A stretch of 64,000 bases of DNA from an uncultured Nitrososphaerota archaeon (lineage in GTDB: Archaea; Thermoproteota; Nitrososphaeria; Nitrososphaerales; Nitrosopumilaceae). A model generated the notes under the pieces. The model did no database searches. It saw only the letters and a program-made list of their open reading frames with translations, and was not told the DNA's origin. Positions 20,285 through 62,587 of the stretch are shown piece after piece; positions within the stretch are counted from its first letter, which is position 1, and each line of letters opens with the position of its first letter. The position numbers and the translations under genes were made by a program. The stretch lies in NCBI GenBank assembly GCA_963722115.1, contig CAVRLU010000009.1, forward strand, positions 29,457 to 93,456, written 5' to 3'.

Positions 20285-23200
20285 TGGCGCTTGAGACAAT
20301 CAAAGTAATTGACGGAATAAAATTCTCTGTATGGTCTCCAACAGAGATTAGAAAATATTCTGTTGCAGAAATTACTGCACCAGAAACCTATGATGAAGAT
20401 GGAATGTCAGTTCAGGGAGGATTGATGGATGGAAGACTTGGCACTCTGGAACCAGGACAGAAATGTCTTACATGCGGTAATACTGCCGCAAGATGTCCAG
20501 GTCACTTTGGTCACATTGAACTTGCAGAACCTGTTTTACACATTGCATTCATCGATAATATCTACAAACTCTTACTTACAACATGTAGATCGTGTGCTAG
20601 ACTAAAACTTCCTCAAGAAGAATTGGAAGAATATCATCAAATTATGAAAAAGGAAGCAGCTTACACTGTAATCTCAATTAAACATATTCCAACTGAAATA
20701 ATTGAAAGAGCCAAGAAAGAAAAGACATGTCCTCACTGTGGCAAGTCACAGTATGAATTGATTTTTACAAAACCAACCATCTTCATAGAAAGAACTGAGC
20801 TTGGTGAGAACAGATTACTCCCAATTACAATCAGAGAAAGATTCTCTCACATGATTGACGAAGATCTCAAATTGTTGGGATATGATCCTACTACAGCAAG
20901 ACCAGAGTGGTTTATTCTACAAGTTCTTCCGGTTCCACCAGTTACAGTAAGACCATCGATTATTCTAGAAACAGGAATTAGATCTGAAGACGATTTAACT
21001 CACAAACTCGTAGATATTATCAGAGTAAATCAAAGACTCAAAGAAAGTAAGGAAGCTGGAACGCCTCCACTTATCGTACAAGACTTGGTTGATCTTTTAC
21101 AATATCACGTTACAACTTACTTTGATAATGAAGTATCAGGAATTCCACAAGCTCATCACAGATCAGGAAGGCCTCTCAAAACTCTCACTCAAAGATTAAA
21201 AGGAAAAGAAGGAAGATTCAGAGGTTCATTATCTGGAAAAAGAGTTGACTTTTCAAGTAGAACTGTTATCTCACCTGATCCTAACTTGCAAATTTCTGAA
21301 GTAGGAGTTCCAGAGGCAGTTGCAACTAAACTAACAATTCCAGAAGTTGTTACTGAATGGAACATTGAAAGACTGAAAAAACTTGTCATAAATGGACCCA
21401 GCAAGTTTCCAGGAGCTAACTATATTGTAAGACCTGATGGAGTAAAAATCAGACTTGATTTCGTTGAAGATAGAGAAACCATTGCAAATAATATTGAAAT
21501 CGGATATCTTGTAGAAAGACACCTATCTGATGGTGATATTGTAATGTTTAACAGACAACCATCATTGCACCAAATGTCCATTATGGGTCATTATGTTAGA
21601 GTATTACCTGGCAAGACCTTTAGACTACATCCATCAGTCTGTCCCCCTTACAACGCTGACTTTGATGGAGATGAGATGAATCTTCACGTACCTCAGAGTG
21701 AAGAAGCAAGAGCAGAAGCTATTCTCTTAATGCGTGTACAAGATCAATTGATTTCTCCAAGATACGGTGGTCCTATAATTGGTGCATTACGTGACTTCAT
21801 TACTGGTGCATATCTGCTTACAAAGGATGATACTACTTTAACACCACAGGAATTTGCAAATCTTGCAATGTTGGGTGGTTATGATGGAACATTCCCAGAA
21901 CCAGCAGTAAAAGCAAAAGGTGGGTCACTTTATAGTGGTAAACAACTCTTCTCGCTTTTCTTACCAAAGGACTTCAATTATGTTATAACTTCAAAATGGT
22001 CTAAAGGAACAAAGGGTCCTGTAAAAGATGTTGTAATTAAAAATGGTCAACTGGTAAGTGGTGTAATTGACAAAGCATCAATTGGTGCAGAAGAACCTGA
22101 TAGTGTTCTACATAGAATTACAAAAGATTATGGATATGAAGAGGCAAAGAATTTCCTTAACTCCATCTTGATCATGCTAAAACAATTCATCACTGGATAT
22201 GGATTCAGTTATGGTTATGCTGATCTTGAACTTGCAACAAAGACAAAAGATGGAATTCTTGAAAATATTCAAGAATCATATGATAAAGTATATGATTTCA
22301 TATCTCAAGCAAAGAAGGGTACGCTACAACTCAGTAGGGGTCTTTCTGCTGAAGAAGCATTAGAGGCTCAAATTGTAAATGAGACTTTCAAAAGCAAGAG
22401 ATAAAGCTGGAAACTCTGCAGACAAATCTTTTGATGAGACTAATGCAGGAAGAATAATGGCAACAACAGGTGCTAGGGGTTCTTCATTAAATATTGGCCA
22501 AATGGCAGGTGCATTAGGTCAACAATCCATTAGAGGTAGAAGAATTCTCAAAGGTTACAGTAACAGAGCATTACCACACTTCAAAGAACATGATGCTAAT
22601 CCAGATGGTAAGGGATTTGTAAAGTCTAATTATAGAGAAGGATTGTCTACTTTGGAATTCTTCTTCCATGCTATGGGAGGAAGAGAAGGTCTTGTCGATA
22701 CTGCAGTTAGAACACAGCAAAGTGGTTACATGCAAAGAAGACTCATCAATGCACTTGAACATCTTAAACTAGAATATGATGGAACAGTACGAGATCCTCA
22801 TGGCCACATAATACAATTCCTTTATGGTGAAGATGGAATAGATGTAGCAAAAAGTGATCATGGTGAAGCATTTAGAATTGCTAGATTAATAGAATCTGAA
22901 AGCATCATTGATTCAGGAAAGAAAGCTACTAAGGAAGAAATTACAGAACTAGTGAAAAAATATGCAAAGACATTCAATCCACGTTTATCAAAAACTGTGC
23001 TAGAAGCCTTACTCGAATCAAAACTTAGCAGAGACGGTGTTGATAAAGTCTGTAAAAAAGCATTAGAACTTTATGATAATGCAAAAGTTGAACCTGGTCA
23101 AGCAGTTGGTGTAGTCACAGCCCAATCAATAGGTGAGCCGGGTACTCAGATGACACTTAGAACATTCCACTTTGCAGGTATCAGAGAAAGAAACGTAACT

Positions 23201-24079
23201 CTGGGACTTCCAAGATTAATTGAACTTGTAGATGCAAGAAAGAAACCAGTAACACCAACAATGGATATCTACTTGGAAGAAAATTACAAAAAATCAAAAG
23301 AAAAAGCAATTAAAGTAGCTAGAGAAATCTTACACACCAAAATTAGTGCATTAATCTCTAGTACCGAAACTGATTATTCTACAAAGATTAAACTTAATCT
23401 TAATCAAGATAAGCTAAGAGAAAGAGCATGTACAATTGAGAATGTAGTGGATGCATTACAATCTTCCAAGAAAAAGTTTGAAATTGAGCCAAGTGGAAAT
23501 TCTATTACCTTGACACTGCCAGAAGAATCTGATACTCAAACTGTTCTTGCAATGAGAAACAAAATACTTTCGACTACTGTTAAAGGTGTTACTGATGTAG
23601 AACGAGTAACAATCGTGCAACAAGGAGAAGAATGGGTTATACAAACTTCTGGCTCTAACATAGCAAAAGTATGGGAAATAGATGGTATAGATAAGAAAAA
23701 TATCCGAACTAACAATATCTTTGAAATAGCAGGTAGCTTGGGTATAGAGGCGGCACGAAATTCGTTGATAAATGAATTAAATTCCACACTTACTGATCAA
23801 GGTCTAGAAGTTGATGTGAGATATCTTATGTTAGTGTCTGATTTGATGTGTTCTAGAGGATATCTACAACAAATTGGAAGACATGGAATTGCTGGAACAA
23901 AGACAAGTGTACTTGCAAGAGCTGCATTTGAAATTACTGTTCCAACAATTGCTGAAGCTGCACTAGCGGGAGAAGTTGAAGAGCTCAAAGGAGTAACAGA
24001 AAACGTTATAGTGGGAGCAAATATTCCTATAGGCACAGGAACAGTTGATCTTTACATGAAGGTGGTTGAAGATGGTTAA
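20284..24079 (+). CDS. rpoA: RNA polymerase largest subunit A (Rpo1, fused A'/A''), broken by one extra base at ~22384
   Basis: NADFDGD catalytic motif; the two ORFs join as IVNELSKARDKAG when the A in AG(A)CT is removed; span = 3n+1. Confidence 0.95.
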
Positions 24080-24389
24080 ACTATTAGAAAAAGTAATCAA
24101 AGACGCAATTGAGGATGGTAAATGCTCTTTTGGTACTAAAGAAGCAATTAGCACAATTAAAAATTCAAAGCTGATTGTCTTATCGCATTCAATTTCAGAA
24201 GAAACACTTGAAAAAGTACAAGAAGCTGCTAAAAGTTCAAAGGTTCCAACTCTGAATTATAATGGATCTTCAGTTGAACTTGGTAGACTATGTGGAACAC
24301 AATTTAGAATTTCTGCACTATCGCTTAAGACTCTGAGCGATACTAATCTAAAAGCAATCACAAAAGAACTTGAAATAGAGACGAAATAA
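24072..24389 (+). CDS. rpl30e: 50S ribosomal protein L30e
   Basis: GK..FGTKE, GSSVELGRLCG; conserved position after rpoA. Confidence 0.9.
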   Translation: MVKLLEKVIKDAIEDGKCSFGTKEAISTIKNSKLIVLSHSISEETLEKVQEAAKSSKVPTLNYNGSSVELGRLCGTQFRISALSLKTLSDTNLKAITKELEIETK

Positions 24390-24430
24390 TCCAATGTCCT
24401 TTTCCTCACATATTTTCTATCAAGATTTAA

Positions 24431-24922
24431 ATGTCCCACAAAGAGATCGAGTTTAAAAAAGGCATGACGGAAACAATCAAACTAACAACAGATCAGATAA
24501 AACTAATGTCACTTTTTCAGAATGTGACTGGAGCTACGGCAAGAGATTGTATTGAAGATGAAAAACAGGACCGAGTCATATTTGTAGTAAATCAAGGTAA
24601 GATGGGATTAGCAATTGGTAAAGGTGGTTCTACAATAAAGAATTTACAAAATGTAGTAAAAAGAAATGTTGAACTTGTAGAATACTCTGAAGATCCAGCT
24701 GAATTTCTTAAGAATATGCTGAATCCAAAGTTAGTTTCTGAAGTAAAAATAAACAAAAGATTGGATGGTTCACTCCAAGCAATCATTCTAGTTGATGCAA
24801 AGAAGAAAGGAATTGTAGTTGGTAGAGAAGGTCGTAATGCAGAAAAAGCAAGACTATTAGCCAAGAGATACTTTCAAATTTCTAGTGTTCTTATACAGAG
24901 TCCGGAGAAAATAATGGAGTAA
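24431..24922 (+). CDS. nusA: Transcription factor NusA (archaeal, KH domains); start probably the ATG at 24464
   Basis: GLAIGKGG and [12 protein letters not shown] motifs; conserved synteny. Confidence 0.93.
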
Positions 24923-24927
24923 ATGGT

Positions 24928-25365
24928 ATGGCAAAATCACCACTAGGTCTATTTGCAGGAAGAGTTCTAAAGGATAAAAGAAAACGCCAGAAATGGTCTA
25001 TAGGTACTTACAAGAGAAGAGAATTAGGTCTTGACAAGAAGGCCAGTCCGCTTGGAGGTGCACCACAAGCTCGTGGTATAGTTTTAGAAAAAGTTGGAAT
25101 AGAAGCGAAGCAGCCCAACTCTGCAGTAAGAAAATGTGTTCGAGTTCAACTCATAAAGAATGGTAAAACAGTTACTGCTTTCCTTCCTAGAGACGGCGCA
25201 CTTAATTTTGTTGATGAACATGATGAAGTACATGTAGAAGGTATGGGCGCATCCATGGGAGGAGCACTTGGTGATATTCCTGGTGTAAGATGGAAAGTCT
25301 TCAAGGTAAATGGAACTTCACTTAAAGAGCTTGTTTACGGAAAGAAAGAGAAGCCCAGGAGATAG
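24928..25365 (+). CDS. rps12: 30S ribosomal protein S12 (uS12)
   Basis: [24 protein letters not shown]. Confidence 0.98.
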
Positions 25366-25368
25366 AAA

Positions 25369-25968
25369 ATGACAGAAACACAGAATCTTTTACTTTTTAG
25401 AAAATGGGATATATCTAATATTGATGTTAAAGATCCAGGTCTGAAAAATGTGATATCTCTTAAACAAGGAATAATGCCTCTGTCTTTTGGCAGATCAGCA
25501 CTTAAACGATTCAATAAATCTGAAGTCAACATTACTGAACGACTGATTAACAAACTATCTCACTTTGGAAAGAAATATGCAAAAAACACTGGTAGAATGG
25601 GTGGAAAGAAAATTCGCGCAATCAATACAGTAAAGGCAGCATTTGAAATAATACATCTTAAAACTGGAAAAAATCCTGTTGAAGTCTTGATACGAGCAGT
25701 AGAACATTCTGCGCCTAATGAAGACACAACCAGAATAGTTTATGGTGGAACTGTTTACCACGTTTCAGTAGATGTTGCTCCACTAAGAAGAGTTGATCTT
25801 GCATTGAGATTCATAGCAGAAGGTGTTAGAGATGCATCATTTTCTAATCCAAAAGCAGTAGAGGAAAATCTTGCAGAGCATTTGATACTTGCTTCTGTAA
25901 ATGACATGAATGCTCCCTCTGTTAAGAAGAAAAATGAATTAGAAAGAATTGCAATGGCCTCTAGATAA
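25369..25968 (+). CDS. rps7: 30S ribosomal protein S7 (uS7)
   Basis: NPVEVL, VDVAPLRRVD, KKKNELERIA. Confidence 0.97.
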   Translation: MTETQNLLLFRKWDISNIDVKDPGLKNVISLKQGIMPLSFGRSALKRFNKSEVNITERLINKLSHFGKKYAKNTGRMGGKKIRAINTVKAAFEIIHLKTGKNPVEVLIRAVEHSAPNEDTTRIVYGGTVYHVSVDVAPLRRVDLALRFIAEGVRDASFSNPKAVEENLAEHLILASVNDMNAPSVKKKNELERIAMASR

Positions 25969-25995
25969 AGAGCACGTTTTTTTAAAAATTATAGA

Positions 25996-26098
25996 TAGCC
26001 CGAGGCAGATTCGAACTGCCGTCCCCAGGTGTCCTCTCGTAAGATCCAGAGCCTGAGATCCCTAACCCAAAATTGTTTGGCCACTAGACTATCGGGCT
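25996..26098 (-). tRNA. tRNA-Gln(CTG) with two 15-nt introns (canonical 37/38 at 26031-26045; non-canonical near 21/22 at ~26062-26076)
   Basis: Acceptor AGCCCGA/TCGGGCT, T-arm GGCAG-TTCGAAT-CTGCC, anticodon stem TCAGG/CCTGG with CTG; removing both inserts gives a 73-nt cloverleaf. Confidence 0.88.
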
Positions 26099-26129
26099 AC
26101 CGAGACGACTGGTATTTCTTGAGAATATA

Positions 26130-26450
26130 TTATTTTGTACTTGCCTCACGGACTGCAGTAGCATAATCACAATTTGCTCCAAGTCTCATGTAAGGAATTA
26201 ATCTATAATGAATGGAATAGATCTTGTTTTCTTTGTATAGAATTCCTTTTAACAAAAGCGAAACAAAGCCTCCTGCAATCCGAGATGATGGAATATTCAA
26301 TTCCTGACATACCTGATCACGTTTTTTCTTGTATTGTTGAGTGGTAAAGCTAATTGTGTTTAATTCCAAAATTAATGGCCACATGACTTTTTCCCAGACA
26401 AATCTACGGTTTTGAGTAGCAGATGCATACTTTCCCTTCTCTTCTAGCAT
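26130..26450 (-). CDS. Hypothetical protein, possibly winged-helix DNA-binding
   Basis: 106-aa basic ORF with a helix-helix-beta hairpin pattern (SLLLKGILYKENKIYSIHY). Confidence 0.55.
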   Translation of the reverse strand: MLEEKGKYASATQNRRFVWEKVMWPLILELNTISFTTQQYKKKRDQVCQELNIPSSRIAGGFVSLLLKGILYKENKIYSIHYRLIPYMRLGANCDYATAVREASTK

Positions 26451-26487
26451 TGATAACGTTCAAAAAGTTCTGATCTCCATTTATTAG

Positions 26488-27189
26488 TTGATGGTATCAA
26501 AAATAGAAGAGGCATTAGAGCTATTATCGAAAAACTGGAAAATTGAACCTATTATTCTAGATTTTATTCTGGGTAAAAAAACAGATGTTGCAGATTTTCA
26601 GATTAAAGTAAATGATGTAATTTTTCATATTCCATATCTTAGAGATGAAAATGGATATGTATTGTGGAAATGTTATTGGCCTGACTGTCATAATTGTTGT
26701 AATAGACAAGGAAGACTTCCACTTACAAGTAATGATCTAATAACAATAAGCAAGAATCTAAAGTACGACAAAGTTTCTGATTTTATAAAAAAAGAGACCA
26801 ATATCTCTACTTGGGAAGAAAAGGGACCAGAAGGAAATTCAGTGGTAATGACTATGATAAATCTAAAACGTAAAGAAGATGAAAAAGAGTCAGAAGATGG
26901 AACTTATGTCAGATGTAGATTTCTTGATGAAAAAGGTTACTGTGGACTTCATCCATCGAGACCAGGAGTGTGTTATCTTTACCCATTCTCATCATGGCTT
27001 GAAAATGAAAAAGGAAAAGCCAGAGTACATGCCACATTTCAATTTACTGGGGATTGTCCAGGATTTTATTTTGCGAAATCTCACGATGAAATGAAAGAAG
27101 TTTTACTTGAATATTCAAAAATGATCTATGATTATACTATGAATTCAAATAGAACAACAAGAGAAAATTTCGGTTACGTAAGTATGTAA
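26488..27189 (+). CDS. YkgJ/UPF0153-like cysteine-cluster protein
   Basis: C...CHNCC, CRFLD..GYCGLH..RPGVCYLYPF, CPG motifs. Confidence 0.85.
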   Translation: MMVSKIEEALELLSKNWKIEPIILDFILGKKTDVADFQIKVNDVIFHIPYLRDENGYVLWKCYWPDCHNCCNRQGRLPLTSNDLITISKNLKYDKVSDFIKKETNISTWEEKGPEGNSVVMTMINLKRKEDEKESEDGTYVRCRFLDEKGYCGLHPSRPGVCYLYPFSSWLENEKGKARVHATFQFTGDCPGFYFAKSHDEMKEVLLEYSKMIYDYTMNSNRTTRENFGYVSM

Positions 27190-27191
27190 TT

Positions 27192-28199
27192 CTAAGCTCT
27201 TGCCACTTTCATCATATCTGTCATCTTGATCTCCATTCCAAATCTATTCTCATTTTTCTTCATATATCTGTAAATGGATAACATATCGAAAAAATTCTTC
27301 ATTATTCCAAATTTGCTTTCCATTTTGTTTCTTACAAAATCTAATACTTTGGAATAAATCGCAAATTTTTCAAGTACCATCTGTCTATATCTTTCATTAT
27401 TTCCTAATGTTTCAACAAAAATATCGCCACAAGTCATACTTGGAATTATTCCCTCACCAAGTAATGGGTAAACCGTTCCTATTGATTCTCCAACTCCTAT
27501 TACCTTTCCATGATAGAATGGTTCACAAAGATTTGGGGTAGCAAGACGTATCGGTCTTCCAACTGTCTTTAGTACTTTGCCTCCGTATTTTTTTAAGAAT
27601 GCGTTAGTTTCTACAATGTGATTTCTATTTTTGTCTCCGGCACCAATGTGGGCAATTTTATCACCTAGTGGGAAATACCAGAAATACCCACTGATGGAAG
27701 AAAATGGTTTAAGATAAAAATCATCAAATGGTACCTTGTCTTCATATTCTACTTTATATTGAAAAGTTGGCAGATGAAAATCCTTCTCAAGTCTTGGTAA
27801 GTATGATCTATGAAAACCTGTAGAATCGACAATCATGTCAAATTCAGATTCTAGATCTGGTAATTTTGGGGCAACTCCATAATGTATCTTACATCCTCTT
27901 GCCATGTCTTTTATCAATCCAATCTTGTTGTAAGTACAAAGTCCTTTGAGTTTAATTTGGAATCTTTCTAAACCCATGTCAACATACATTTGTTTTCCAT
28001 CATGAATTACATAATCGTTAAAATCAAGTCCGACCTTTTTAGAAAATTCTTGCATTGGTGCTTTTGATGTCCCCCACGCACATATGGAATCATGATTCTC
28101 TAGTGTAGATCTTTCAAAACCTACTACCTCATGTTGATTCTTCAATCTTGCAAGTAGATATGCTCCTGCAACTCCTATTCCAACTACTGCAATCTTCAA
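27192..28199 (-). CDS. FAD-dependent oxidoreductase, geranylgeranyl reductase-like
   Basis: GIGVAG dinucleotide motif, GYFWYFP, GESIGTVYPLLGEGI. Confidence 0.75.
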   Translation of the reverse strand: MKIAVVGIGVAGAYLLARLKNQHEVVGFERSTLENHDSICAWGTSKAPMQEFSKKVGLDFNDYVIHDGKQMYVDMGLERFQIKLKGLCTYNKIGLIKDMARGCKIHYGVAPKLPDLESEFDMIVDSTGFHRSYLPRLEKDFHLPTFQYKVEYEDKVPFDDFYLKPFSSISGYFWYFPLGDKIAHIGAGDKNRNHIVETNAFLKKYGGKVLKTVGRPIRLATPNLCEPFYHGKVIGVGESIGTVYPLLGEGIIPSMTCGDIFVETLGNNERYRQMVLEKFAIYSKVLDFVRNKMESKFGIMKNFFDMLSIYRYMKKNENRFGMEIKMTDMMKVARA

Positions 28200-28244
28200 A
28201 CGATCTTATACCTAAAATTACCTAATAAAAACATGCGGCAGTTA

Positions 28245-31133
28245 CTATTCTATTAAGATGGCTGGTTTGTATGGTCTAGCTGTTCTTGATTTATTTTTTG
28301 GATCATATTTGTCTTGATCTGATTCTGCAAATACTTGGGATGTAATCCTAAATTCTGCTTGTACGAGTGAATTCAACTCAGAAAGAATTTTCTTTTCATC
28401 GATTAGACCAATTCTATTTTTTGATTCTCTCTCTTCTTGGGATTCTGATAAAATATCATTAACTGTTTTTTTAACAAAATCAGGATCTTTCTTTATTTCC
28501 TCTGTTTCCTTGTCTGCAATGAGTGATTTTATTAGAGTGCCAATGTTTACCTCACCTTCAACTACTTTAGATAAAATTTTCTGATAGGCCTTTACTTTCC
28601 ATGTCGCCGGTGTGTAAATTGTTATTTTCTTAGGAATAATCTTTGTAACCTTGATTATATTTTTGATGTCCTCCATCGTATTTTTTAGTAGATTTTCAGA
28701 TTGAATTGATCCGAAATCAATACTATCAGCATGATATGTAGGCCAAGAAGACTTTGATGCAATACCTGGATTTCCTAATCTGTACCACATCTCTTCTGAG
28801 GCATATGGTGCAAAAGGTGACATCATTGCTACTCTTATGGAAAATATTTCATGCAAAATTCCTAAGAAATCCTCACGTTTCTTTGCGGTAACTCGTTTCA
28901 TATACCATTGAAGATCTGACTCAAACTCGTAGAGTATGAAATGTAGTGCTTCTCTTAATCGCATTTTTTGTATTGATGAAGTTGTCGCGAAAATCAATTG
29001 TTCAATCTTACTTTTTATCCATCTATCTTCCTGTTCAAGTTTGATATTCTGAGCAGATTTGTATTTTGAACATTCATCTAACATACTCTCTAACTTGTTC
29101 TTTATTCCCTTGACTGCTTCTTGGTTGAAATCTGCATCTTGTAATAGCTCTGCTGAAATTAAAATTGCAAGCCTTATGGAATCAGCACCGTGAATTCTTA
29201 TGGCATCTCTAAGGGGAATTATATTTCCTTCAGATTTTGACATCTTTTTTCCATCCATGAGAACTGAACCATTGACCACAATTTCTTCAGGCCAGTATTC
29301 TTTCGGAAATATTGCTATGTGGTTGAAAATAAAAAATGTTAGATGATTTGGTACTAGATCTCTACCTGAATGTCTTGCATTAACTGGATAAAAATACTGG
29401 AATTCTTTTTTTATCTTTTCTAGTAGAATGGGTGTTATTTTACATTGAGATGAGACCGTTTCTGAACTTCCTTTGTTCAAAAATATGTGATCGAAAAAAA
29501 TATCGGATGTGTTTTCTGATGTAATTTCTTTACTGTTCACATATTTTGCTATTGTGTAATATGCCATGTAAATTACTGAATCTGATAAACTCTCTATTAT
29601 CCAGTTTTTATCCCAAGGTAATTTTGTTCCTAATCCGTGTTGTCTTGCACATGCTCGCTCACGGAGCCAATCTACTACATTATTGAATTCGTTTCTAATT
29701 TCTTCTGGTAAAATCTTCATCTCATTTATCCATGAATGTACTTTTATTTTCCATTCTGGATCTGAATAGTTAAGAAACCATTGGTTGTTGAGTATTTTTA
29801 CTACACATTCTGCACCACATCTGCATCTCACGGGTGTCTCATTTAGTTCGTATAGAATATCGGCATTTCCAGTTTGTAGAAGCCATTTTTTTACTTCATC
29901 TTTTGCTTCTGAGACTGTCTTGTTTACAAATTTTCCAGTATTTTGTTTTAATCTGCCACTGTAAAATTCCTTTGAGTAAATCTCCTTGGTAGCTTCTTCT
30001 AACTTAGGACTATTCTGATTTTCAATTTGAAGTCTAATTATTACATCTTGAGCAGGAATTTCTCCATAGCCTTCTGTTGCAATTATTGGTATGGCGTTAA
30101 TATTCTGAATCTCAGAAAGATTAGGATATTTTGTAAATTCTTTTTTCAGATCTTCTAAAGCTTGATAGTCAAAAGGAGCATGTGCCGGAACTGACATTAC
30201 TATGCCTGTACCATTCTCGCTTTTGACAAAACTTGCAGGTAGAATTAGAACTAGATCATTTCTTTCAGGAACTTGAACTTTTTTACCTATTAGTTCTTTA
30301 CCTGATATTTTATCTAATCTTGCTATTGTTTTATTGTGAAATTCTAACTTTCTTGCACACTCGCTGGTTACTATCCATTTTTCATCATTGACTTGTACGA
30401 TTTCATAAACAAATTCTGGATTTATCCAGATGTTTGTTACCCCGAAAATAGTCTCAGGTCGTAATGTTGCAGTGGGGATGATGTACTTCTCATACTTGAA
30501 TTTGATAATTGTATATTCTGTAAAACTTGGCTCTACATCTCCCTGAGTATCGTGTTGAGAGACAGGATTCTGATCCTTTGGACACCATCCCACCGGATGA
30601 GTACCCTGAATTATTAGATTTTTCTCTTTTAATTTTCCAAATTGCCATTCAATAAACTTACTATATACAGGATCTATTGTGGTAAATTCTCTTCTCCAAT
30701 CTATTGAATAACCCATCTCTTTCATTCCAGCCTTTATTTCTTGGTGGAAATAATCTGCAATTTTTATTGGCTCTGAAAATTCTCTTATCTTCTCATCTGG
30801 AACCTTGTATATATTGCGAAATGTTTCTAATAATTTTATGTCGTTGTCTTGAACTCTTCTAGCCATACCTAGAATGGGAGTTCCAGTGTAGTGAAACCCC
30901 ATGGGAAATAATACATTATAGCCCATCATACGCATAAATCTTGCATGAACATCTGCTAGTGTGTATGTTCTTCCATGTCCAACATGTTGTGGGGAATTGG
31001 GGTATGGATAAGCTACCGTTACAAAGAATTTTTTTTCATTATTAGGATCAGTCTCAAAATATTTCTCAGTTTCCCATCTGTGTCTCCATTTTTCTTCAAG
31101 TGAAGTCCAATCCATCCTACTATCTTTCTCCAA
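28245..31133 (-). CDS. leuS: Leucine--tRNA ligase (archaeal type)
   Basis: AYPYPNSPQHVGH (HIGH), KMSKS, ATLRPET editing domain. Confidence 0.96.
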   Translation of the reverse strand: MEKDSRMDWTSLEEKWRHRWETEKYFETDPNNEKKFFVTVAYPYPNSPQHVGHGRTYTLADVHARFMRMMGYNVLFPMGFHYTGTPILGMARRVQDNDIKLLETFRNIYKVPDEKIREFSEPIKIADYFHQEIKAGMKEMGYSIDWRREFTTIDPVYSKFIEWQFGKLKEKNLIIQGTHPVGWCPKDQNPVSQHDTQGDVEPSFTEYTIIKFKYEKYIIPTATLRPETIFGVTNIWINPEFVYEIVQVNDEKWIVTSECARKLEFHNKTIARLDKISGKELIGKKVQVPERNDLVLILPASFVKSENGTGIVMSVPAHAPFDYQALEDLKKEFTKYPNLSEIQNINAIPIIATEGYGEIPAQDVIIRLQIENQNSPKLEEATKEIYSKEFYSGRLKQNTGKFVNKTVSEAKDEVKKWLLQTGNADILYELNETPVRCRCGAECVVKILNNQWFLNYSDPEWKIKVHSWINEMKILPEEIRNEFNNVVDWLRERACARQHGLGTKLPWDKNWIIESLSDSVIYMAYYTIAKYVNSKEITSENTSDIFFDHIFLNKGSSETVSSQCKITPILLEKIKKEFQYFYPVNARHSGRDLVPNHLTFFIFNHIAIFPKEYWPEEIVVNGSVLMDGKKMSKSEGNIIPLRDAIRIHGADSIRLAILISAELLQDADFNQEAVKGIKNKLESMLDECSKYKSAQNIKLEQEDRWIKSKIEQLIFATTSSIQKMRLREALHFILYEFESDLQWYMKRVTAKKREDFLGILHEIFSIRVAMMSPFAPYASEEMWYRLGNPGIASKSSWPTYHADSIDFGSIQSENLLKNTMEDIKNIIKVTKIIPKKITIYTPATWKVKAYQKILSKVVEGEVNIGTLIKSLIADKETEEIKKDPDFVKKTVNDILSESQEERESKNRIGLIDEKKILSELNSLVQAEFRITSQVFAESDQDKYDPKNKSRTARPYKPAILIE

Positions 31134-33829
31134 TAACTAATTTCTCAATAGTAAGGAGGGCATCTTTTATTTTTGATAGATTTTTTCCTCCCCCCTGGCC
31201 AAATGTGTCTCTTCCACCCCCTGAGCCACCAAGCACTTTAGATACATCCTTTACTAGATCTCCTGCTTTCTTGGTCAAAATTGCTTCAGAACCGCAAAAC
31301 GCAATTATCTTGATTGTTTCATTTTTTATTATTAATGCACAATAGATCAACGATTTTTCAATCTTAGTTGCCATCTCTCCTGTAGATATGTGAAATTCTT
31401 CATCAAGTTCTTCTTCAACTGTGCTGTAAAGTTTAACCTGTCCAATATTCTTTGCCTGAGCAATAGCCTCTTTTGCAGATGACTCTGAAGTTCTTTTCAT
31501 TAATTGCTTTAATTTTCTTTTTGCATCATCAGAATCCTTCATTACGTGTTCAAACGATTCTATCATCTTTTCTTTGCTTGAACCAAGTGATTTTACTATA
31601 TGTGAAATCTTTCTATCTTGAGTTTGAGTATACTTTAGTGCCGCCTCACCAGAAACAAATTCTAGTCTTACTACTCCATCTTGGATTCTCTCAGCTTTTG
31701 TAATTTTTATTAATCCTAATTCGCCCGTCTTTTTAACGTGAGTTCCACCACAAGCTTCCACATCAAATCCTTCTATGTTGACAATTCGTACTAGTTTTAC
31801 TGGAACTACTCCACCCTGATAAATTCTAAAACCATACTCTTGTTCAGCTTCGCCTCTTTCAAACTGATTGATTAATATCGGAATATTTTTTCTTATAGTG
31901 CTATTTGCAAGATCTTCTATCTTCATTATTTCTTCTTCTGTGAGATTTGAATGGTGAGTGATGTCAAGTCTTGCATAATCTACATCCTTGAATGCAGAAT
32001 GCTGCCATATCCATGAACCTAATATGTTTCTCGAAGATGCGTTTAGTACATGAGTACTGGTATGATTACGCGTTATTCCAAATCTTCTTGTAGAATCAAC
32101 TTTACATTTTACAATCATGCCTTCTTTTGGCGTAGAATCTTTTATCTCATGTAATACAACATTTCCATGTTTGGTAACATCTATCACATCAAATTCAGAA
32201 ATTTTTCCATGATCTGGCTCTTGTCCACCTCCTCTTGCATAAAATGACGTTTTATCCAGTACGACAAATTTATTATTAATTACTCGAAGAACTTTGGCTT
32301 CAAATTCATGAGGATCATCTTTGTAATACAGCAATTCTGTATCGGGTATTCCCTCCAAATTCAGTTCTTGCTTTTTTTCAGTTTTCTCAGATTGATGTAA
32401 ATCTGTTAATCTTTCATAGAACGTTGAAGGAATTTCTGGAATTATCTGAGCTTCTTTGAGGAAATCTGGAGTTATACCGTCTGACTCGTATAAGCGAATA
32501 AGATCATCTACTGACAATTTCTTATTCTGTGTCTTGAGATTAGTTGCCATGTTTTTCATTCTAACTCTAGATTCATTGTAACGACTCTTTTCTACCTCGA
32601 TTATTGTTTTAACATCATTACGAGTTTGTTCAAGCTCTGGGTAAGTTGATTTTAGATAATCTATATGTAGATCAATCAAGTCATTGAGATCAAAATTCCA
32701 CCTAAATCTATCAATCGTAGCAAGTGTTCTCCTTAGAATCATTCTCAAGTTGTATCCTCCTCCAACATTACTTGGCAATGCACCGTCCGAAATTGCAAAA
32801 ATGAGGGTTCTCAAATGATCAGCTATCGTGTATATGCCTTCAAGTGGTGAAATTATCTTATTTTGTTTTGTTTCATCTAGACCAGCAATTCTTGCAGCAG
32901 TTTTTCTGACTATTGAGATGTCTTCTGATTCTGATAGAGACTTTTGCAACTGCCATGAAGTATTTTGAAATTATGCTTGAATCTATGTCAATACCTATTT
33001 TTTGTATCATGTATTTTGTTATGGGTCCAAAACAGCAATCATATGCAGTTGGAGTTCCCATTGTTATCCATGCAAATCTTTCAAGGCCTGCTCCCATGTC
33101 TATGATCTTTTGATCTAAAATGGAATAGTTGTTCAAATCTCCTTGGAATTCAGTAAATACTGCATTACCAAGTTCTAAACCTCTTACAAAATATTCCAGT
33201 GATGAACCGAAAGATCCCCCACCTGCCCAGACATCTTCAACAAATACTATTTCCTTTTTATTAATTCCTAATCTATCTGTAAGAAGTTTAAAATCAAGTT
33301 CTACACATCTATCCTTCCAATATCCTTGTGAATTTGGTATACTGTGTTGTCCTATCATACAAAAACTAGAAAAATGTCTTCCAGTTACTCCAACATTCTC
33401 AATATCTTTGAATCTAAGACAAGTCTGAGGGACAATTAACGGATTGGCAGGAAATTCAAAGACAACTTTGGAACCCATCACTCTCTGAAAATCCACAATT
33501 GATGCAATCGTAAAATAAAGATCATCACGCCATCTGCAAACTACTGGATATCTTCCAACTGATTTATGATTATTCTGTACAAAAAAAGATTCTACTTCTT
33601 TCCATGCTTGTGTATAATCAAATCTCTTGTTTGTAGGAGGGTCTCCAATGAAGGAATAACTATTTTCTATATGATCAGGACACAAATTTAGGTTATCATC
33701 CAGAGTCCAAAAATATCTTCTACATTTACTGCATGATTTTCTTCTAAATCCCTCATTTTCAAATAATGCAACTTTATAGTATCTATCAGGATCAGTGGAA
33801 AACTTTGAAAGGATCTGATCTTTTTCCAT
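31120..33829 (-). CDS. alaS: Alanine--tRNA ligase, broken by one extra base at ~32940
   Basis: VGVTGRH, DMGAGLER, HTSTH and CGGTH editing motifs, DHHA1 GGG tail; frames join (AVAKALSESED) on deleting one base; span = 3n+1. Confidence 0.95.
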
Positions 33830-33906
33830 TTCACAATTTTTTCTTCTGACTGATATTAAGCATTCTGAAGCAACACATTAAATATGATTTATTAGAAAAG
33901 TTTCTC

Positions 33907-34413
33907 ATGTTCCAAAGGAAGGGTTGGAAAGAAGGAGACTTTGTCTTTGCATCCAAGCCCAATGGTGAGTATAGCGATATCATTGTAGGCATTGTAACAG
34001 GAGTAGAAAATGCAAATATTGGTGTTAATGGAATTGTGATAAATCCTGTAGGTTTGAAGAATAAAGTATCACAGGGAAAATCTGGTCCTCAATCAGTTGA
34101 GATTCTGAAAAATCCTAATCCAAAGGAGTGTATCTTTGCCTTGATCTATAGAGTTGAATACAATAATTTCACTGGAGTGTTTGATGTCAATAATGATCCA
34201 GTTGAAAAAATCCATAAAAATATTCATAATATTATTTCTGGTTGGGTTAGGGAATCAATTCCTGAATTGATTAACAATGTTCTTTCTTTACCTGATGGTT
34301 CAGAAAGGGATCAAGCAAAACGAATCCTAAAACAAAGAATGGATACACTTTATGATAAAGAATTGAAGAAATACATGTATTCAATCTGTAGAGGTCTTAA
34401 GATCTTAAACTAG
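33907..34413 (+). CDS. Hypothetical protein
   Basis: 168-aa ORF filling the gap between alaS and rpl12. Confidence 0.7.
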   Translation: MFQRKGWKEGDFVFASKPNGEYSDIIVGIVTGVENANIGVNGIVINPVGLKNKVSQGKSGPQSVEILKNPNPKECIFALIYRVEYNNFTGVFDVNNDPVEKIHKNIHNIISGWVRESIPELINNVLSLPDGSERDQAKRILKQRMDTLYDKELKKYMYSICRGLKILN

Positions 34414-35493: not shown

Positions 35494-35502
35494 TTTTCTA
35501 AA

Positions 35503-36370
35503 TTATTGAGTGCTATAGTTCTTTAGCTTTCCTGATAGTGATTTGGCTTGTCCATGAGCTCTCTGAATCGTTGATTCCTTAGTGTCTTCAGTAAGGAAAC
35601 CTGATTCTACTGCAAGTGATCTTGCCTGTTGAGCAGCTCTTGAAAGTATGATGTTGACGTTCTCCTTGGTTACATATCCTATCTCTATGGATAATGCTAA
35701 TGCTTCTTGATGGGCCTGAGCAAAAGCCGCTCTGTATTTTTCTAGGTCTACTGTTAATTCTTCTTCATTGTAAACTATCTTCTCCTCCAAGGCGGAGTTT
35801 AGTACTATGCCTGCCTCTACTGCCTTGACATCAAGACTTACTAAGTAAGGTGGCCAATTTTGCAGATATGGTATCGCCTTTCTTTGCAGCTACTGAATCC
35901 TTGGTTATCCAAACTGTTCCTTGATCAATCTTTGTTGAAACTCCAGCTTCTTTGAAATCTGTAAGAATTGGTCCAGGAGTAATTCCTGTGTTACCTGCTT
36001 TAATTACAACGTCTATGCTTGCTTTATCTCCACCTCTTGCAGCCATCATTATTTTATTTTTACCTAGTAAAATATTCAGTCTGATTGGACTCATATTTGT
36101 AAACATCAAAACACATTGTCCGACTAACTTTTCGGCAAGTTTTTCAAGTCCTGGAATCTTTAGTGTAGAAAGTGACTTTTGCGCAACTTTGTCTTTAATG
36201 CTTACGATTTCTACTTCCCCTTTGAATTTTTTTCTTAATGGTAATAATTGTGAAGATCTTACTTTTTCCATTCTAACTAGTGCTACAACTTTGTATTTAT
36301 TTGGTAATTCTTGAAGCTGCTGATACATCTGCATTTTCTTTTGAGGATATTTTGTTCTATTCTGATGCAT
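35503..36370 (-). CDS. rpl10: 50S ribosomal protein L10/P0, broken by one extra base at ~35836
   Basis: AGNTGITPGP motif; frames join as LLSKLDVKAVEAGIVL when the base is removed; span = 3n+1. Confidence 0.93.
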
Positions 36371-37031: not shown

Positions 37032-37198
37032 TACGAGAATCTTCCTGATTTGCCTATTTAAAATCCTTTAGCGACAAAATCATTCGAGAAATGCTAACAT
37101 TATAAAATTTTCATGTTGTTTAACTTATCTTGAAATAAGAATACTTTTGGCAAAAGGAACTTACATTTATTAAATACTAATAAAAAGAAGTCGCAAAG

Positions 37199-37658
37199 TT
37201 GCACAAATTCGATGAATTAGATATGAAAATAATTACTGAACTTAGTCGAGACGGTAATGCTTCAGTTCCTAATCTCTCAAAAAAACTTGGAGTAAATACT
37301 TCGGTTCTGTATAGTAGAATAAAGAGGCTTGTTAAGAAAAAATTAATCAAGAAATTTACTATTGTTGTTGACGAGTCTCTGATTGGTATAGGAGTAAGAG
37401 CTGACTATGGGTATTAACAGGGATCCAAAGTTAAAGGACCAGATCCATAAAGCATTGATAAAAACTCCTGAAATAGTTGCAATATCTGAAGTTACTGGAC
37501 GTTTTGATATTCTGTTAACTCTGAGGGCGCAGAACCTTGAAGAATTACATACTGTGGCTATAGAAAAGATAGGTAAAATAGAAGGAATTCAAAATACTGA
37601 AACTTTTGTTGAATTGCAAAGAACTGATAAGGATCCAGTTTATTCTGTAATTGAATAA
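37199..37658 (+). CDS. Lrp/AsnC family transcriptional regulator, broken by one extra base at ~37403
   Basis: N-terminal HTH (DELDMKII...RIKRL) and C-terminal EVTGRFD domain; joins as GVRATMGINR; span = 3n+1. Confidence 0.9.
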
Positions 37659-38181: not shown

Positions 38182-38638
38182 CTAATGAGTTGATGGTTTA
38201 AGATAATTTGCATCAACAGTAACTGGTAATTGATATGGCGCATCAAGTAAAATTACAGTAGCCTCTTCTTTATCCTGATCTACTCTTGTAACTGTAGTCT
38301 TTCATACCTTTGAAGGGACCACCAATAATCTCAACAACTTGATCCACGACTAATTCTGAAACTGTGGATTTCTTTACCAAATATCCTTCTATGTCCTTGA
38401 ATGTTAATTCTCCTCTTAGTTGGCCTCTAATGTGTCTAATTCCCTGTAATGCATCAAATGCCGCGTTGGCATCTATGGCTTCAACAACAACATATCCTTT
38501 GAGATTCTCAAGAAGAAGAACTGATTGTATGTTGAGTTTTTTTAGTTTAATTCTGTTTTCTAGTAAACCCATAACAACTTTCTCTTGACCCCCCGTGGTT
38601 CTAACTGCGAAAAAGTGTGATTTTGTTTCTTGTGCCAT
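38182..38638 (-). CDS. spt5: Transcription elongation factor Spt5/NusG, broken by one extra base at ~38298
   Basis: NGN domain plus KOW (VEIIGGPFKG); continues MKATVTRVDQDKEEATVILLDAPYQLPVTVDANYL to TAG at 38182 after correction. Confidence 0.93.
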
Positions 38639-48095: not shown

Positions 48096-48584
48096 ATGGC
48101 ATATTCACAAATATTACGTAGATCTCGGGACGAGAAGACCAACTACAAAAAGAGAAGACATCTCTTGATGGGTAGACGAGACTTTATCACAGTCCAGATA
48201 TCAAATGAAAATACGCTGGTACAAATTCATAAACCCGAAATGGCCGGTGATAAGGTTCTTTCATCAGCTCATTCCAGATCACTTATCAATAAGGGTTGGA
48301 AGGGATCAAGAAAGAGTATACCGGCAGCATATCTTACTGGTTATCTTGCAGGTAAGAAAGCACTTGCAAGTGGAGTCAAGAGTGCAGTACTTTATACTGG
48401 TACTAGAAAATATACCCAAAGAATTGCAGCGGCATTGAAAGGAATAATAGATGCCGGACTAGATGTACCCGCAGACGCAGAAACTTTTCCATCTGAAGAG
48501 AGGATTAGTGGTAAGCATCTTAAAGTTGCAAATGAGATCGACAAAGTAAGATCTGCAATTGATAGTGAGGTTAAATCCAAATGA
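48096..48584 (+). CDS. rpl18: 50S ribosomal protein L18
   Basis: KTNYKKR, PAAYLTG, ERISGKH. Confidence 0.95.
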   Translation: MAYSQILRRSRDEKTNYKKRRHLLMGRRDFITVQISNENTLVQIHKPEMAGDKVLSSAHSRSLINKGWKGSRKSIPAAYLTGYLAGKKALASGVKSAVLYTGTRKYTQRIAAALKGIIDAGLDVPADAETFPSEERISGKHLKVANEIDKVRSAIDSEVKSK

Positions 48585-49217
48585 GTAGAACAGAACAAAG
48601 ATCAAGACCACCAAGAAGAGAACCAGAACAGGTGTGGGTTCCAAGAACCAAACTGGGAACACTAGTAGCAACTGAAAAGATTACAACGATGAAAGAAATT
48701 TATGAAAATGGTTATCGAATTCAAGAGGCCGGAATCATTAAAAAATTATTGCCAGGAATTAAAACAGAAGTAATTGATGTTGGAATTGTTCAAAAACAAA
48801 CAACCAACGGTGAATATACAAGATTTAAGGCACTTGTTGCAGCAGGTGATGAAAATGGTTGGTTAGGAATAGGACAAGGAAAATCAAAACAGATGAGAAT
48901 TGCAATTGAAAAAGCAACAAATCAAGCTCTATCTTAATGTTAGTCCGGTAAAACTTGGTTGCGGAAGTTGGGAGTGTAGATGTGAACAACCACATTCAGT
49001 TCCATTCAAAATTAGAGGAAGAGGTGGAAGTGTTACAATAGAAGTTATTCCAGGACCGAGAGGTCTGGGACTTGTAGCTGGTGGAAATATTAGAAATCTT
49101 TTGAAATTAGCAGGTTTGAAGGATGCTTGGACAAAAAGTACAGGATCGACAAACACCATGACATCTACATCAAGAGCTGTTTTGGATTGTTTGAGACAAA
49201 CATTTAGTCAGGGTTGA
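48581..49217 (+). CDS. rps5: 30S ribosomal protein S5, broken by one extra base at ~48929
   Basis: WVPRTKLG, GCGSWEC, PGPRGLGL; joins as ATNQAYLNVSPV; span = 3n+1. Confidence 0.95.
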
Positions 49218-59377: not shown

Positions 59378-60338
59378 TCATCTAACTTGGTAAATCGGTT
59401 TTCTACCAGAGAGTGAAAGTATTAAGTTCTTGACTGCTATCTCTGCCATTTTCTTTCTTGTCTCTACAGTTGCACTACCACTATGAGGTGTTAATACGGC
59501 ATTATTCATTTTTACAATTGGATGTTTGGAATTAATTGGCTCCTTTTGAAATACATCAAGACCAGCTCCTGCAATTATTTTTCTTTTTAATGCAATAGCA
59601 AGATCTTTTTCATTTATTATTTTGCCACGAGCTGTATTGATCAAAAATGAAGTTTTTTTCATTTTCTTAAATAATTTTAAATTCACAATTTCATGTGTCT
59701 GAGGCGTATGTGGTGAGTGTATACTTACGACATCACTTGTTCTAAAAAGATTATCTAACGATACATATTTTACTCCTAATTTTTTTTCCTCTTTAATTGA
59801 TAATCTAGTTCTGTTGTGATAAATTACCTTCATCTCAAAACCTGCAGTCTCTTTTTGCCACTGCTTTTCCTATTCTTCCCATTCCGAATATGCCCAGAGT
59901 TTTTTGATATAGATCAGTTCCAAGAAATTCATAAGGACCGAATATTGTGCTCCATTTATCATTACGAATTAGTTTATCGCCCTCAGGTATTCTCCTGAAA
60001 AGAGATAACATCAAAGCCATGGTCATATCTGCAGTAGCTCGAGTCAATACTTCTGGGGTATAACCTACTGTAATACTTCTACTTGCAGCAGTCTTGACAT
60101 CTATGTGATCATATCCAACACTATAGGTAGAAATTGCCTTAAGTTTAGTTCCAGTATTAATTACGTCTGCATCTATGGAATCATACGGGTAACAGATTAG
60201 GCCATCTTTATCCTTGATTTTTGATATCAGTAACTTTTTTGGCATTGGAATCTTTCCAGTGTAGATTTCTACATCGTATTTCTTTTTGAGTTCCTTTACA
60301 GCAAAATCATGCAGTCTCCGTGTGAGTAATATTTTCAA
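59378..60338 (-). CDS. D-2-hydroxyacid dehydrogenase (glyoxylate/hydroxypyruvate reductase-like), broken by one extra base at ~59848
   Basis: VGYDHID, GMGRIG, LINTARG, AGLDVF..EP, TPHSGSAT; joins as AKRAAGFEMKVIY; span = 3n+1. Confidence 0.92.
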
Positions 60339-60611: not shown

Positions 60612-60672
60612 TATATTGTCTTTTCAAAAAAATCATAGAATTATTAATATTTGATGAGCGTCTAGATGCATC

Positions 60673-62587
60673 ATGTCTTCTATTGATCTAACTTGGGTTA
60701 TTGGCGGACCTCAAGGTGGAGGTGTCGAAACAGCTGCAAATATTTTTGCTGGCGCATGTGCAGGTTGTGGTCTGAAAGTATTTGGAAAAAGAGAATATTA
60801 TTCTAATATCAAAGGTGAGCACAGTTACTTTGGAGTACGTGTCTCTGACAAGACAATCAGATCAAATGTTAGCGGAATTACAATGCTAGTAGGATTTGAT
60901 GCTGAGACCTTATTTCGACATGCAGATGCGGTGTTTGATGATGGTGCGATAGTATATGAATCTGATTTATCTGCGATGCAAATCGACGAAGTTCATACGC
61001 TTGATGCACAATTCAAGGAACGTCTCAAAAAATATCTTTTATCAAAAAATAAACCATTAACCATTCAAGGATCACTTGATGCAGCCAAAGAGAGGGGAGT
61101 TACACTATATCCTGTGTCATTCAAAGAAATCTTGGCTAATTTATCTGATGAGACACAAAATCCAAAAATACGTGGAATGTTTCGTATGCAGAATGTCCTT
61201 GCTGTTTCTATATCTATTGGATTATTGGGACTCCAGCCTGAAACCTTGATGAAATCTGTAGGATCAATATTTTCCAGAAAAGCAGAGATTGCAGAGATGA
61301 ATAAAACTGCAGCAAATTATGCTTATAATTTTTCTACAGTAAAGTATTCTAAATTCAAATATCAATTATCTCCAATTCCAAAAGAAGAACATACGATGTT
61401 AGCTCAAGGCTTTCAATCTACAAGTCTTGGAAAGATAGCATGTGGTTGTAGGTTTCAATCATACTATCCAATTACACCCGCATCGGATGAAAGTGTATTT
61501 TTAGAATCAAATGAAATTTTTGAAGTTGAAAACAACAGACCAGGATCTACACTAGTTGTACAAACAGAAGATGAAATATCTGCAATAGGAATGATTATTG
61601 GTGCATCCTTGACAGGAGCTGAGATCTTCAACAAGTACTTCAGGTCCAGGTTTCTCTCTTATGGCAGAAGCTCTTGGTTGGGCTGGAATAAACGAAGTTC
61701 CAATTGTAGTAACTTTATACCAGAGAAGTGGTCCTTCTACAGGTCTCCCTACTAGACATGGACAAGATGATTTACAATTTGCAATTCATGCTGGACATGG
61801 TGATTTTCCACGAATTGTATATGCATCGGGTGATACTGAAGAGGGATTTTACGATACTGCAAAATGTTTCAACTTTGCTGACATTTATCAAATTCCTGTA
61901 ATACACATGATGGACAAATTCATTGCAAGTACAGTTTCCACCGTAAAAAGATTTGATCCAACCAAGATAACGATAGAACGTGGAAAACTTCTTAAAAAAA
62001 TTGAAGATCCAGGATATAAAAGATTCACACCGTCACCAGATGGTATATCTCCAAGATCAAGACTTGGACTTGAAAATGGAATATTTTGGAATACCGGCGA
62101 TGAAAGTGATGAATCAGGTCACATATCCGAAGATCCAGAAAATCGTATTTATAAAATGGACAAGCGTGAGCATAAAATGGAACTCGCACTAGACCAAATT
62201 CCTAAGGAAGACCAGGCAATAAACTATGGAGTATCTGATTTTTGTATTCTTAGCTGGGGTTCAACAAAAGGGCCCATCTTAGATGCTATTGAAATGCTCA
62301 ATAAAGCAGGCTATAAGGTTGGGTTTATTCAAATCAAAATGCTACATCCGTTTCCAACCAAATATGTCCAGTCCTTACTCTCGGGAGTTAAAAAAATAAT
62401 TGATATCGAAGCAAATCAATCTGGGCAAATGGGTTCATTACTTAATGAATATTTGGATAGGAAAGTTGACTATTACATATTAAAATACACAGGAAGACCA
62501 ATGACTTGTAATGAACTCTTTGATTCTATCAAGAAAATTATCGACAATAAAGCCGAGAAAAAACAGGTGTTAAGATATGGTGTCTAA
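60673..62587 (+). CDS. korA: 2-oxoacid:ferredoxin oxidoreductase alpha(/gamma) subunit, broken by one extra base at ~61621
   Basis: GGPQGGGV, YPITPAS, EDEISA, QRSGPSTGLPT; joins as LTGARSSTSTSGPGFSLMAE; span = 3n+1. Confidence 0.92.

What the first reader, a model, noticed from the sequence alone, without database searches (positions are those of the whole stretch)
22382..61621. All eight frameshifts are single-base insertions at an AGCT tetramer: probable footprint of AGCT DNA methylation
Seen in sequence: eight genes are split, each spans 3n+1 bases, and each is restored by removing one base within or just after AGCT. Plus-strand sites: rpoA AG(A)CT 22382-22386; alaS AG(A)CT 32938-32942; rpl10 AG(A)CT 35834-35838; Lrp AGCT(G) 37399-37403; spt5 AG(T)CT 38296-38300; rps5 AGCT(C) 48925-48929; hydroxyacid dehydrogenase AG(T)CT 59846-59850; korA AGCT(G) 61617-61621. 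Only alaS could alternatively be a homopolymer slip. AGCT is expected roughly once per 300 bp at this base composition, so 8/8 is not chance. Established: rpoA, alaS, rps5 and spt5 are essential, and modified bases cause motif-specific consensus errors in nanopore assemblies. Inference: the genes are intact and the organism modifies the palindrome AGCT (AluI-like specificity, m4C or m5C). I recall AGCT methylation being reported for thaumarchaea, which should be verified. Many other AGCT sites in the window read correctly, as expected for a probabilistic base-calling error. A real motif-directed editing or recoding system is much less likely but would be remarkable.
Basis: partly seen in the sequence, partly recalled or inferred. 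Interest (0 to 1): 0.8.

Follow-up and report, generated by a model that had tools for sequence, protein, structure and literature searches.

The report
Assembly errors at methylated AGCT, GATC
The eight broken-looking genes in this ammonia-oxidising archaeon each carry one extra letter at the word AGCT, which close relatives and most other sequencing runs of the organism lack, so the genes are very likely intact and the slips are likely long-read sequencing errors at methylated AGCT (and GATC) sites, a known kind of artefact.

Summary
Observation confirmed. All eight +1 bases are where stated, and every relative that covers a site lacks the base. In public runs of a near-identical population, 16 of 17 covered run-site pairs at five sites lack it; the other three sites rest on relatives only. 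The organism is Nitrosotalea-like.

Genome-wide, 88 of 149 simple +1 frameshifts fit AGCT (null 6.5%). The slips are stereotyped: AG(A/T)CT, AGCT(G)A, GA(A/T)TC. Five nanopore-only MAGs of related organisms show AGCT slips (7 in 335 sites); finished or short-read-style records show 0 in 770.

The genome has an intact orphan beta-class methyltransferase, likely REBASE group HG19 (AGCT, m4C). AGCT m4C and GATC m6A are published for Nitrososphaerota.

Verdict: likely base-calling artefact revealing a known methylome; methylation and platform are inferred, not measured. The scan found this before: 17 findings in at least 10 other genomes. Low interest; useful as a quality warning.

The parts
20284..24079 (+). 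rpoA (fused A'/A''), split by one extra base at 22384, AG(A)CT
   Evidence: base left out in runs X1, X3, X4; X2 has no depth there
31120..33829 (-). alaS, extra base at 32940, AG(A)CT on + strand
   Evidence: left out in 4 of 4 runs
35503..36370 (-). rpl10 (P0), extra base at 35836, AG(A)CT on + strand
   Evidence: left out in X1, X3, X4 but not in X2, which covers the site at depth 6.7
37199..37658 (+). Lrp/AsnC regulator, extra base at 37403, AGCT(G)A
   Evidence: left out in X1 and X4, the 2 runs that cover it
38182..38638 (-). spt5/NusG, extra base at 38298, AG(T)CT on + strand (start coordinate derived from the 151-aa restored frame)
   Evidence: left out in 4 of 4 runs
48581..49217 (+). 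rps5, extra base at 48929, AGCT(C)T
   Evidence: 5 of 5 relatives lack it and read AGCT; no same-species run laid
59378..60338 (-). 2-hydroxyacid dehydrogenase, extra base at 59848, AG(T)CT on + strand
   Evidence: 5 of 5 relatives lack it; no same-species run laid
60673..62587 (+). 2-oxoacid:ferredoxin oxidoreductase alpha (korA-like), extra base at 61621, AGCT(G)A
   Evidence: 6 of 6 relatives lack it; no same-species run laid
37034..37040 (.). possible ninth, intergenic slip GA(A)TC just upstream of the ORF 36372-37031 (-); not established
   Evidence: 11 of 14 relatives are one base shorter, but 3 of the 6 closest have the window's length

Best explanation
The eight extra bases are very likely consensus errors of a native-DNA long-read (likely nanopore-only) assembly that fall at AGCT, likely because an orphan methyltransferase puts N4-methylcytosine there, so the genes are likely intact in the cell. 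Steps: (1) shown: the base is absent from relatives and from 16 of 17 same-species run-site pairs. (2) shown: genome-wide the +1 slips pile up on AGCT (about 4.5% of sites) and GATC (about 0.75%) in a few fixed forms. (3) inferred: the palindromes are methylated on both strands, AGm4CT by the beta-class enzyme at G000:C21:11946-12794 (likely REBASE group HG19) and Gm6ATC by a Dam-like enzyme whose genomic region is missing from this assembly. (4) inferred: the modified base shifts the signal, the base-caller adds a base, reads of the two strands give the mirror forms AG(A)CT and AG(T)CT, and at low depth one form wins the consensus.
For: Same-species contigs and relatives lack the base. Against G009, 934 genes and 737 kb gave 218 frame-changing events, 177 of net +1 and 17 of net -1. 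Of 149 simple +1 events at least 90 nt into the gene, 88 fit AGCT (null 6.45%, p 1e-64), and 20 of the other 61 fit GATC (null 7.9%, p 2e-8); AGCT is the top 4-mer, then GATC among the rest. Forms: 51 of 88 centre A/T, 24 of 88 AGCT(G)A or its mirror; 14 of 20 GA(A)TC or its mirror. No codon-frame bias (p 0.46) and no significant coding-strand bias for the centre class (32 vs 20, p 0.13). 5 of 5 Microflora Danica MAGs, nanopore-only per PMC12313526, show AGCT slips, mostly of the same forms: 7 in 335 AGCT sites against 0 in 770 in other records (Fisher p 2e-4). Five more relatives show 0 in 725 sites. The methyltransferase is intact, 283 aa, with SPPY, 90% identical to that of Ca. Nitrosotalea okcheonensis. 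PMC10609329 Table S3 gives 'Nitrosotalea species CS' HG19 (AGCT m4C) and HG3 (GATC m6A), not HG11. A Dam-like D12 gene is strong in 11 of 12 genus members. High-GC contig ends, nearly all without a G009 match (41 kb), fit a low-depth long-read assembly.
Against: No raw signal and no library record: platform and methylation are inferred. Run X2 does not lack the base at 35836. Runs X1 and X2 carry AGCT indels of their own where window and relatives agree (32634, 35331, 41329; AGCT read as AGTG at 24534-5) and their library is not on record; this fits the explanation only if they are native long-read runs. Seven rows of that indel table were not shown. 41 of 149 events fit neither motif. The AGCT(G)A class leans to the coding strand (20 of 25, p 0.04). 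The papers read describe modification-linked errors mainly as substitutions (PMC11610603) and as a small share of errors (6.5%, PMC12392509). No D12 match in G000 itself. The enzyme's specificity is not tested. In the MAG comparison overlapping loci count some sites twice, one G024 event is placed ambiguously, and the platform of the control records is judged from contig names only.
Confidence: 0.88

Rival explanations
1. Still an artefact, but caused by something other than m4C/m6A: a sequence-context weakness of the base-caller or polisher at unmodified AGCT, or another modification such as phosphorothioate.
For: The forms depend on flanking bases (AGCT(G)A nearly always before A); modification was not measured.
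Against: The two enriched motifs are exactly the two published for Nitrososphaerota. dndC (TIGR03183) was found in 0 of 31 genus genomes searched; other phosphorothioate systems were not searched.
Confidence: 0.07
2. The insertions are real scars in part of the DNA molecules: blunt cleavage at the palindrome centre (AG^CT, GA^TC), untemplated addition of one A, and resealing.
For: The commonest forms, AG(A)CT/AG(T)CT (51 of 88) and GA(A)TC/GA(T)TC (14 of 20), are what one A added at a central blunt cut on either strand would give. X1 and X2, of unknown library type, also show AGCT indels.
Against: 24 of 88 events are AGCT(G)A, outside the centre and tied to the next base. Scars would need to be the majority at single sites in essential genes. 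0 in 770 sites in non-nanopore-style records. No restriction gene beside the methyltransferase and no AGCT avoidance.
Confidence: 0.02
3. The extra bases are fixed in the genome and are removed by motif-directed RNA editing or ribosomal frameshifting.
For: Essential genes are hit; X2 does not lack the base at one site.
Against: Not conserved in any relative; absent from 16 of 17 same-species run-site pairs; 127 of 934 genes hit, spread along gene length; other nanopore MAGs have the slips at other sites.
Confidence: 0.01
4. True pseudogenisation in a decaying strain.
For: About 14% of aligned genes carry a +1 event.
Against: rpoA, alaS, rpl10, rps5 and spt5 cannot all be lost (established knowledge); 177 insertions against 17 deletions; motif specificity.
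Confidence: 0.01

Closest known systems
Modification-linked errors in nanopore reads and nanopore-only assemblies (PMC11610603, PMC12392509; passages read)
   Same: Errors at or near methylated motifs, only some occurrences affected, persisting into the consensus.
   Different: Those passages stress C-to-T and G-to-A substitutions, or a 6.5% share of errors. Here the errors are single-base insertions and make up about 72% (108 of 149) of the simple frameshifts; 0 of 40 listed substitutions restore either motif.
HG19 persistent orphan AGCT m4C methyltransferases (REBASE cluster 383; Anton and Roberts, PMC10609329; M.TarMY3I of strain MY3 is listed as AGCT m4C in PMC11033074)
   Same: Beta-class orphan enzyme; the table lists Nitrosotalea sp. 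CS in this group; our protein is 90% identical to the Ca. N. okcheonensis enzyme and has 50-52% matches in 7 of 7 genomes of another family of the order.
   Different: Membership in cluster 383 was not tested by sequence; no methylome of a Nitrosotalea was found in print. That strain CS is Ca. N. okcheonensis is recalled.
HG11 AGCT m4C methyltransferases of Nitrosopumilales (M.Nca01I and M.NspBD3I are listed as AGCT m4C; their group assignment is inferred)
   Same: Same motif and modification.
   Different: The family-wide DPPF-type enzyme of related genera, likely HG11, is only 25-28% identical and has a close match in 1 of 30 genus genomes.
HG3 orphan GATC m6A (Dam-like) methyltransferases of Nitrososphaerota
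   Same: GATC is the second error hotspot; D12 gene in 11 of 12 genus members.
   Different: The gene is not in this assembly; the whole 20-kb G009 piece holding it has no match in G000.
Microflora Danica long-read MAG catalogue quality note (PMC12313526, passages read)
   Same: Reports reduced coding density mostly in archaeal, low-GC, low-coverage nanopore MAGs.
   Different: It links this to long homopolymers. Here only 1 of 41 non-motif events could be a homopolymer extension of 5 or more, and motif sites dominate.

Membership tests
Methylation-linked nanopore consensus error | Errors concentrated at a short motif beyond chance | tested here: met
   88 of 149 AGCT, 20 of 61 GATC
Methylation-linked nanopore consensus error | Absent from independent data of the same species | tested here: met
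   16 of 17 covered run-site pairs at 5 sites; 3 sites checked on relatives only
Methylation-linked nanopore consensus error | Same signature in known nanopore-only assemblies, not in others | tested here: met
   7 in 335 vs 0 in 770 AGCT sites; control platform judged from contig names
Methylation-linked nanopore consensus error | This assembly was made from unamplified nanopore reads | not testable with these tools
   No library record; inferred from signature and high-GC contig ends
Methylation-linked nanopore consensus error | Modification signal at the motif | not testable with these tools
   No raw signal available
HG19 orphan AGCT m4C methyltransferase | Intact beta-class N4/N6 methyltransferase (SPPY before the SAM-binding motif) | tested here: met
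   283 aa, PF01555 E 5e-42
HG19 orphan AGCT m4C methyltransferase | No adjacent restriction enzyme | tested here: met
   Neighbours are Alba, dehydroquinate synthase II, dehydroquinase and two small ORFs without Pfam hit
HG19 orphan AGCT m4C methyltransferase | Member of REBASE cluster 383 | tested here: inconclusive
   Indirect: 90% to the Ca. N. okcheonensis enzyme, Table S3 row, distribution; no cluster sequence was compared
HG19 orphan AGCT m4C methyltransferase | Methylates AGCT at N4 of C | not testable with these tools
   Needs expression or methylome data
HG11 AGCT methyltransferase | Close homology to the family-wide Nitrosopumilaceae enzyme | tested here: not met
   25-28% identity; that this enzyme is HG11 is inferred
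AluI-like m5C restriction-modification system | C5 methyltransferase, partner endonuclease, site avoidance | tested here: not met
   PF00145 not found in the 70% complete genome; AGCT observed/expected 1.02
HG3 GATC m6A methyltransferase | D12-class gene in the genome | tested here: inconclusive
   Not found in G000, region unassembled; strong in 11 of 12 genus members
Programmed frameshifting or RNA editing | Shift site conserved in relatives and fixed in the species | tested here: not met
Dnd phosphorothioation | dndC gene | tested here: not met
   0 of 31 genomes searched

The most novel reading that the evidence does not exclude
The centre-of-palindrome insertions are real lesions in the DNA of ammonia-oxidising archaea: blunt cuts at AG^CT and GA^TC resealed with one untemplated A, present in a large share of molecules and tolerated or repaired later. 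This is excluded as a fixed genomic state, but stays open as long as the library type of runs X1 and X2 is unknown.
Probability: 0.02. Interest if true: 0.85.

Novelty: new member of a known kind. Interest (0 to 1): 0.2.

Why it matters
Practically: about 14% of aligned genes in this assembly (127 of 934) carry a +1 frameshift, mostly at the two motifs. Gene-loss claims, completeness scores and marker trees from nanopore-only MAGs of ammonia-oxidising archaea are therefore biased, and by motif-linked slips more than by homopolymers. The fixed forms give a simple flag for curation. Scientifically: the slips are indirect evidence that Nitrosotalea methylates AGCT and GATC, as REBASE predicts from genes, apparently with the Nitrososphaerales-type enzyme (HG19) rather than the one of its closer relatives. 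No new biology is needed.

Tried and rejected
Same-species runs could be laid on 22200-42199 only, so rps5, the dehydrogenase and korA are checked on relatives alone. Nanopore MAGs were compared over about 20-27 kb each, not genome-wide.

Substitution errors at the motifs: 0 of the 40 listed (of 343) differences to runs X1-X4 restore AGCT or GATC. Homopolymer slippage: 1 of 41 non-motif events. m5C enzyme: not found. The second PF01555 match (C10) is the end of a 204-aa ORF between housekeeping genes and was not pursued. Position 41329, first noted as a ninth site, is not a window error: relatives agree with the window.

Rows dropped before counting: of 218 events, those with net change other than +1, several gaps, under 90 nt from the reference start, or duplicates (149 kept). 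In one search, events under 130 nt from the start and duplicates in overlapping loci were dropped.

The supplements of PMC6329791 held no enzyme sequence. The PDB, plasmid and 50%-cluster searches named no AGCT enzyme. Literature searches for an AGCT-specific nanopore insertion error found nothing relevant; subscription papers, REBASE itself and bioRxiv supplements were not searchable.
Full report
Observation. All eight sites are in the sequence as described. Removing one base restores full-length frames and Pfam supports the gene names. The window lies in G000, a 1.17-Mb, 46-contig assembly rated 70% complete. Its methyltransferase's closest named relatives are Nitrosotalea, so it is a Nitrosotalea-like ammonia-oxidising archaeon. 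Every relative covering a site has one base fewer, and G003 reads AGCT at 7 of 8. No other coding frameshift was found in the window; 557 of 640 bins were covered by two or more relatives.

Same-species data. Twenty runs hold part of the stretch, eight of them half or more. Four were laid on 22200-42199; their contigs are 95-100% alike. The base is left out at 22384 (3 of 3 covering runs), 32940 (4 of 4), 35836 (3 of 4), 37403 (2 of 2) and 38298 (4 of 4): 16 of 17. X2 does not lack it at 35836. X1 and X2 also have indels of their own at AGCT (32634, 35331, 41329) and read AGTG at 24534-5, where window and relatives agree. X3 and X4 show none among the rows shown; 7 rows were hidden. Library types are not on record. 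I infer that X1 and X2 share the error mode. The last three sites rest on relatives only.

Genome-wide test. 1911 ORFs of G009 were aligned to G000. 934 genes (737 kb) passed the filters and gave 218 frame-changing events, 177 of net +1 and 17 of net -1. Of 149 simple +1 events, 88 fit AGCT against 6.45% of 4000 simulated insertions (p 1e-64). Of the other 61, 20 fit GATC against 7.9% (p 2e-8); 41 fit neither, and 13 of those lie in contigs C40 and C45. The forms are narrow: 51 AG(A)CT or AG(T)CT, 24 AGCT(G)A or T(C)AGCT, 13 others; 14 of 20 GA(A)TC or GA(T)TC. About 4.5% of AGCT and 0.75% of GATC sites are hit, in 127 of 934 genes. There is no frame bias (p 0.46) and a weak coding-strand lean in one class (p 0.04). 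So 'all at AGCT' holds for the window but not for the genome, and there is a second motif.

Replication. Five records named MFD...bin, linked to G021-G025 by the tool, follow the naming of a catalogue assembled from nanopore reads only (PMC12313526, passages). Each shows at least one AGCT slip, mostly of the same forms, at other sites: 7 distinct events in 335 AGCT sites. Five other named genomes and 61 loci with short-read-style or uninformative contig names show 0 in 770 (p 2e-4). Five unnamed relatives show 0 in 725. Kin are not independent and overlapping loci inflate the site counts, so the p value is a guide only.

The enzyme. G000:C21:11946-12794 encodes an intact 283-aa beta-class N4/N6 methyltransferase with SPPY among housekeeping genes. 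A strong match is in 11 of 12 genus members. It is not the DPPF-type enzyme common in other genera of the family (25-28% identity), which has a close match in 1 of 30 genus genomes. It has 50-52% matches in 7 of 7 genomes of another family of the order. This fits Table S3 of PMC10609329 (rows read): Nitrosotalea sp. CS carries HG19 (AGCT m4C, shared with Nitrososphaera and Nitrosocosmicus) and HG3 (GATC m6A) but not HG11. Our protein is 90% identical to the Ca. N. okcheonensis enzyme; that this species is strain CS is recalled. A Dam-like gene is strong in 11 of 12 genus members but missing from G000 along with its whole region. No C5 methyltransferase was found, dndC in 0 of 31 genomes, and AGCT is not avoided.

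Literature. SMRT methylomes show AGCT m4C and GATC m6A in Nitrosarchaeum BD3 (96% and 98% of sites; PMC6329791, passages) and AGCT in marine thaumarchaeal MAGs (bioRxiv 2021.05.08.442635, passages). PMC11033074 lists both motifs for several members (passages). Ahlgren 2017 was seen only as cited. Modification-linked nanopore errors are described in PMC11610603 and PMC12392509 (passages). Four searches found no paper on AGCT-specific insertions, and one found no Nitrosotalea methylome. The scan's notes hold 17 similar findings in at least 10 other genomes; these are unchecked notes, not support.

Mechanism and verdict. Shown: the bases are peculiar to this assembly and motif-bound, and they recur in nanopore-only assemblies of kin. 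Inferred: both-strand methylation of the palindromes disturbs base-calling, each strand gives its own slip, and low depth lets one into the consensus. High-GC stretches, mostly at contig ends (41 kb), fit such an assembly. The one curious point is that the commonest forms mimic a central blunt cut plus one A. The off-centre AGCT(G)A class and the absence in other records argue against real scars. Confidence 0.88 for the full explanation and about 0.95 for an artefact of some kind. Interest 0.2.

Noticed in passing
G000 contigs C1, C3, C9, C10, C18, C20, C21, C30, C31, C35, C39, C40, C41, C43, C45: About 41 kb of 55-71% GC sequence, mostly at contig ends (C45 1-15500, C40 1-10500), nearly all without a match in G009; C21 also ends in about 300 bp of 62-77% GC. 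Likely foreign DNA joined on, although contamination is rated 0.07%.
   Followed up: partly
window 24534-24535, 32634, 35331, 41329 (runs X1, X2): Contigs of two public runs carry their own indels or changes at AGCT where the window is intact; library type not on record.
   Followed up: partly
L106:2287-2541 and L289:815-1018: The same small ORF (50-55% identity) lies beside two different methyltransferases, SPPY-type in Nitrosotalea (tandem) and DPPF-type in other genera (convergent), suggesting one enzyme replaced the other at one locus. G011 keeps a 42-residue stretch 69% like the DPPF type.
   Followed up: partly
window 37037: Possible intergenic GA(A)TC slip; relatives differ in length, so unresolved.
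   Followed up: partly
G000 and G009 genome-wide: GATC (0.79) and GTAC (0.77-0.81) are under-represented while AGCT is neutral.
   Followed up: no
L237:1461-2350: The methyltransferase gene itself is split in this long-contig MAG record (42% best segment; a 91-aa piece is 84% identical), probably by assembly errors.
   Followed up: no
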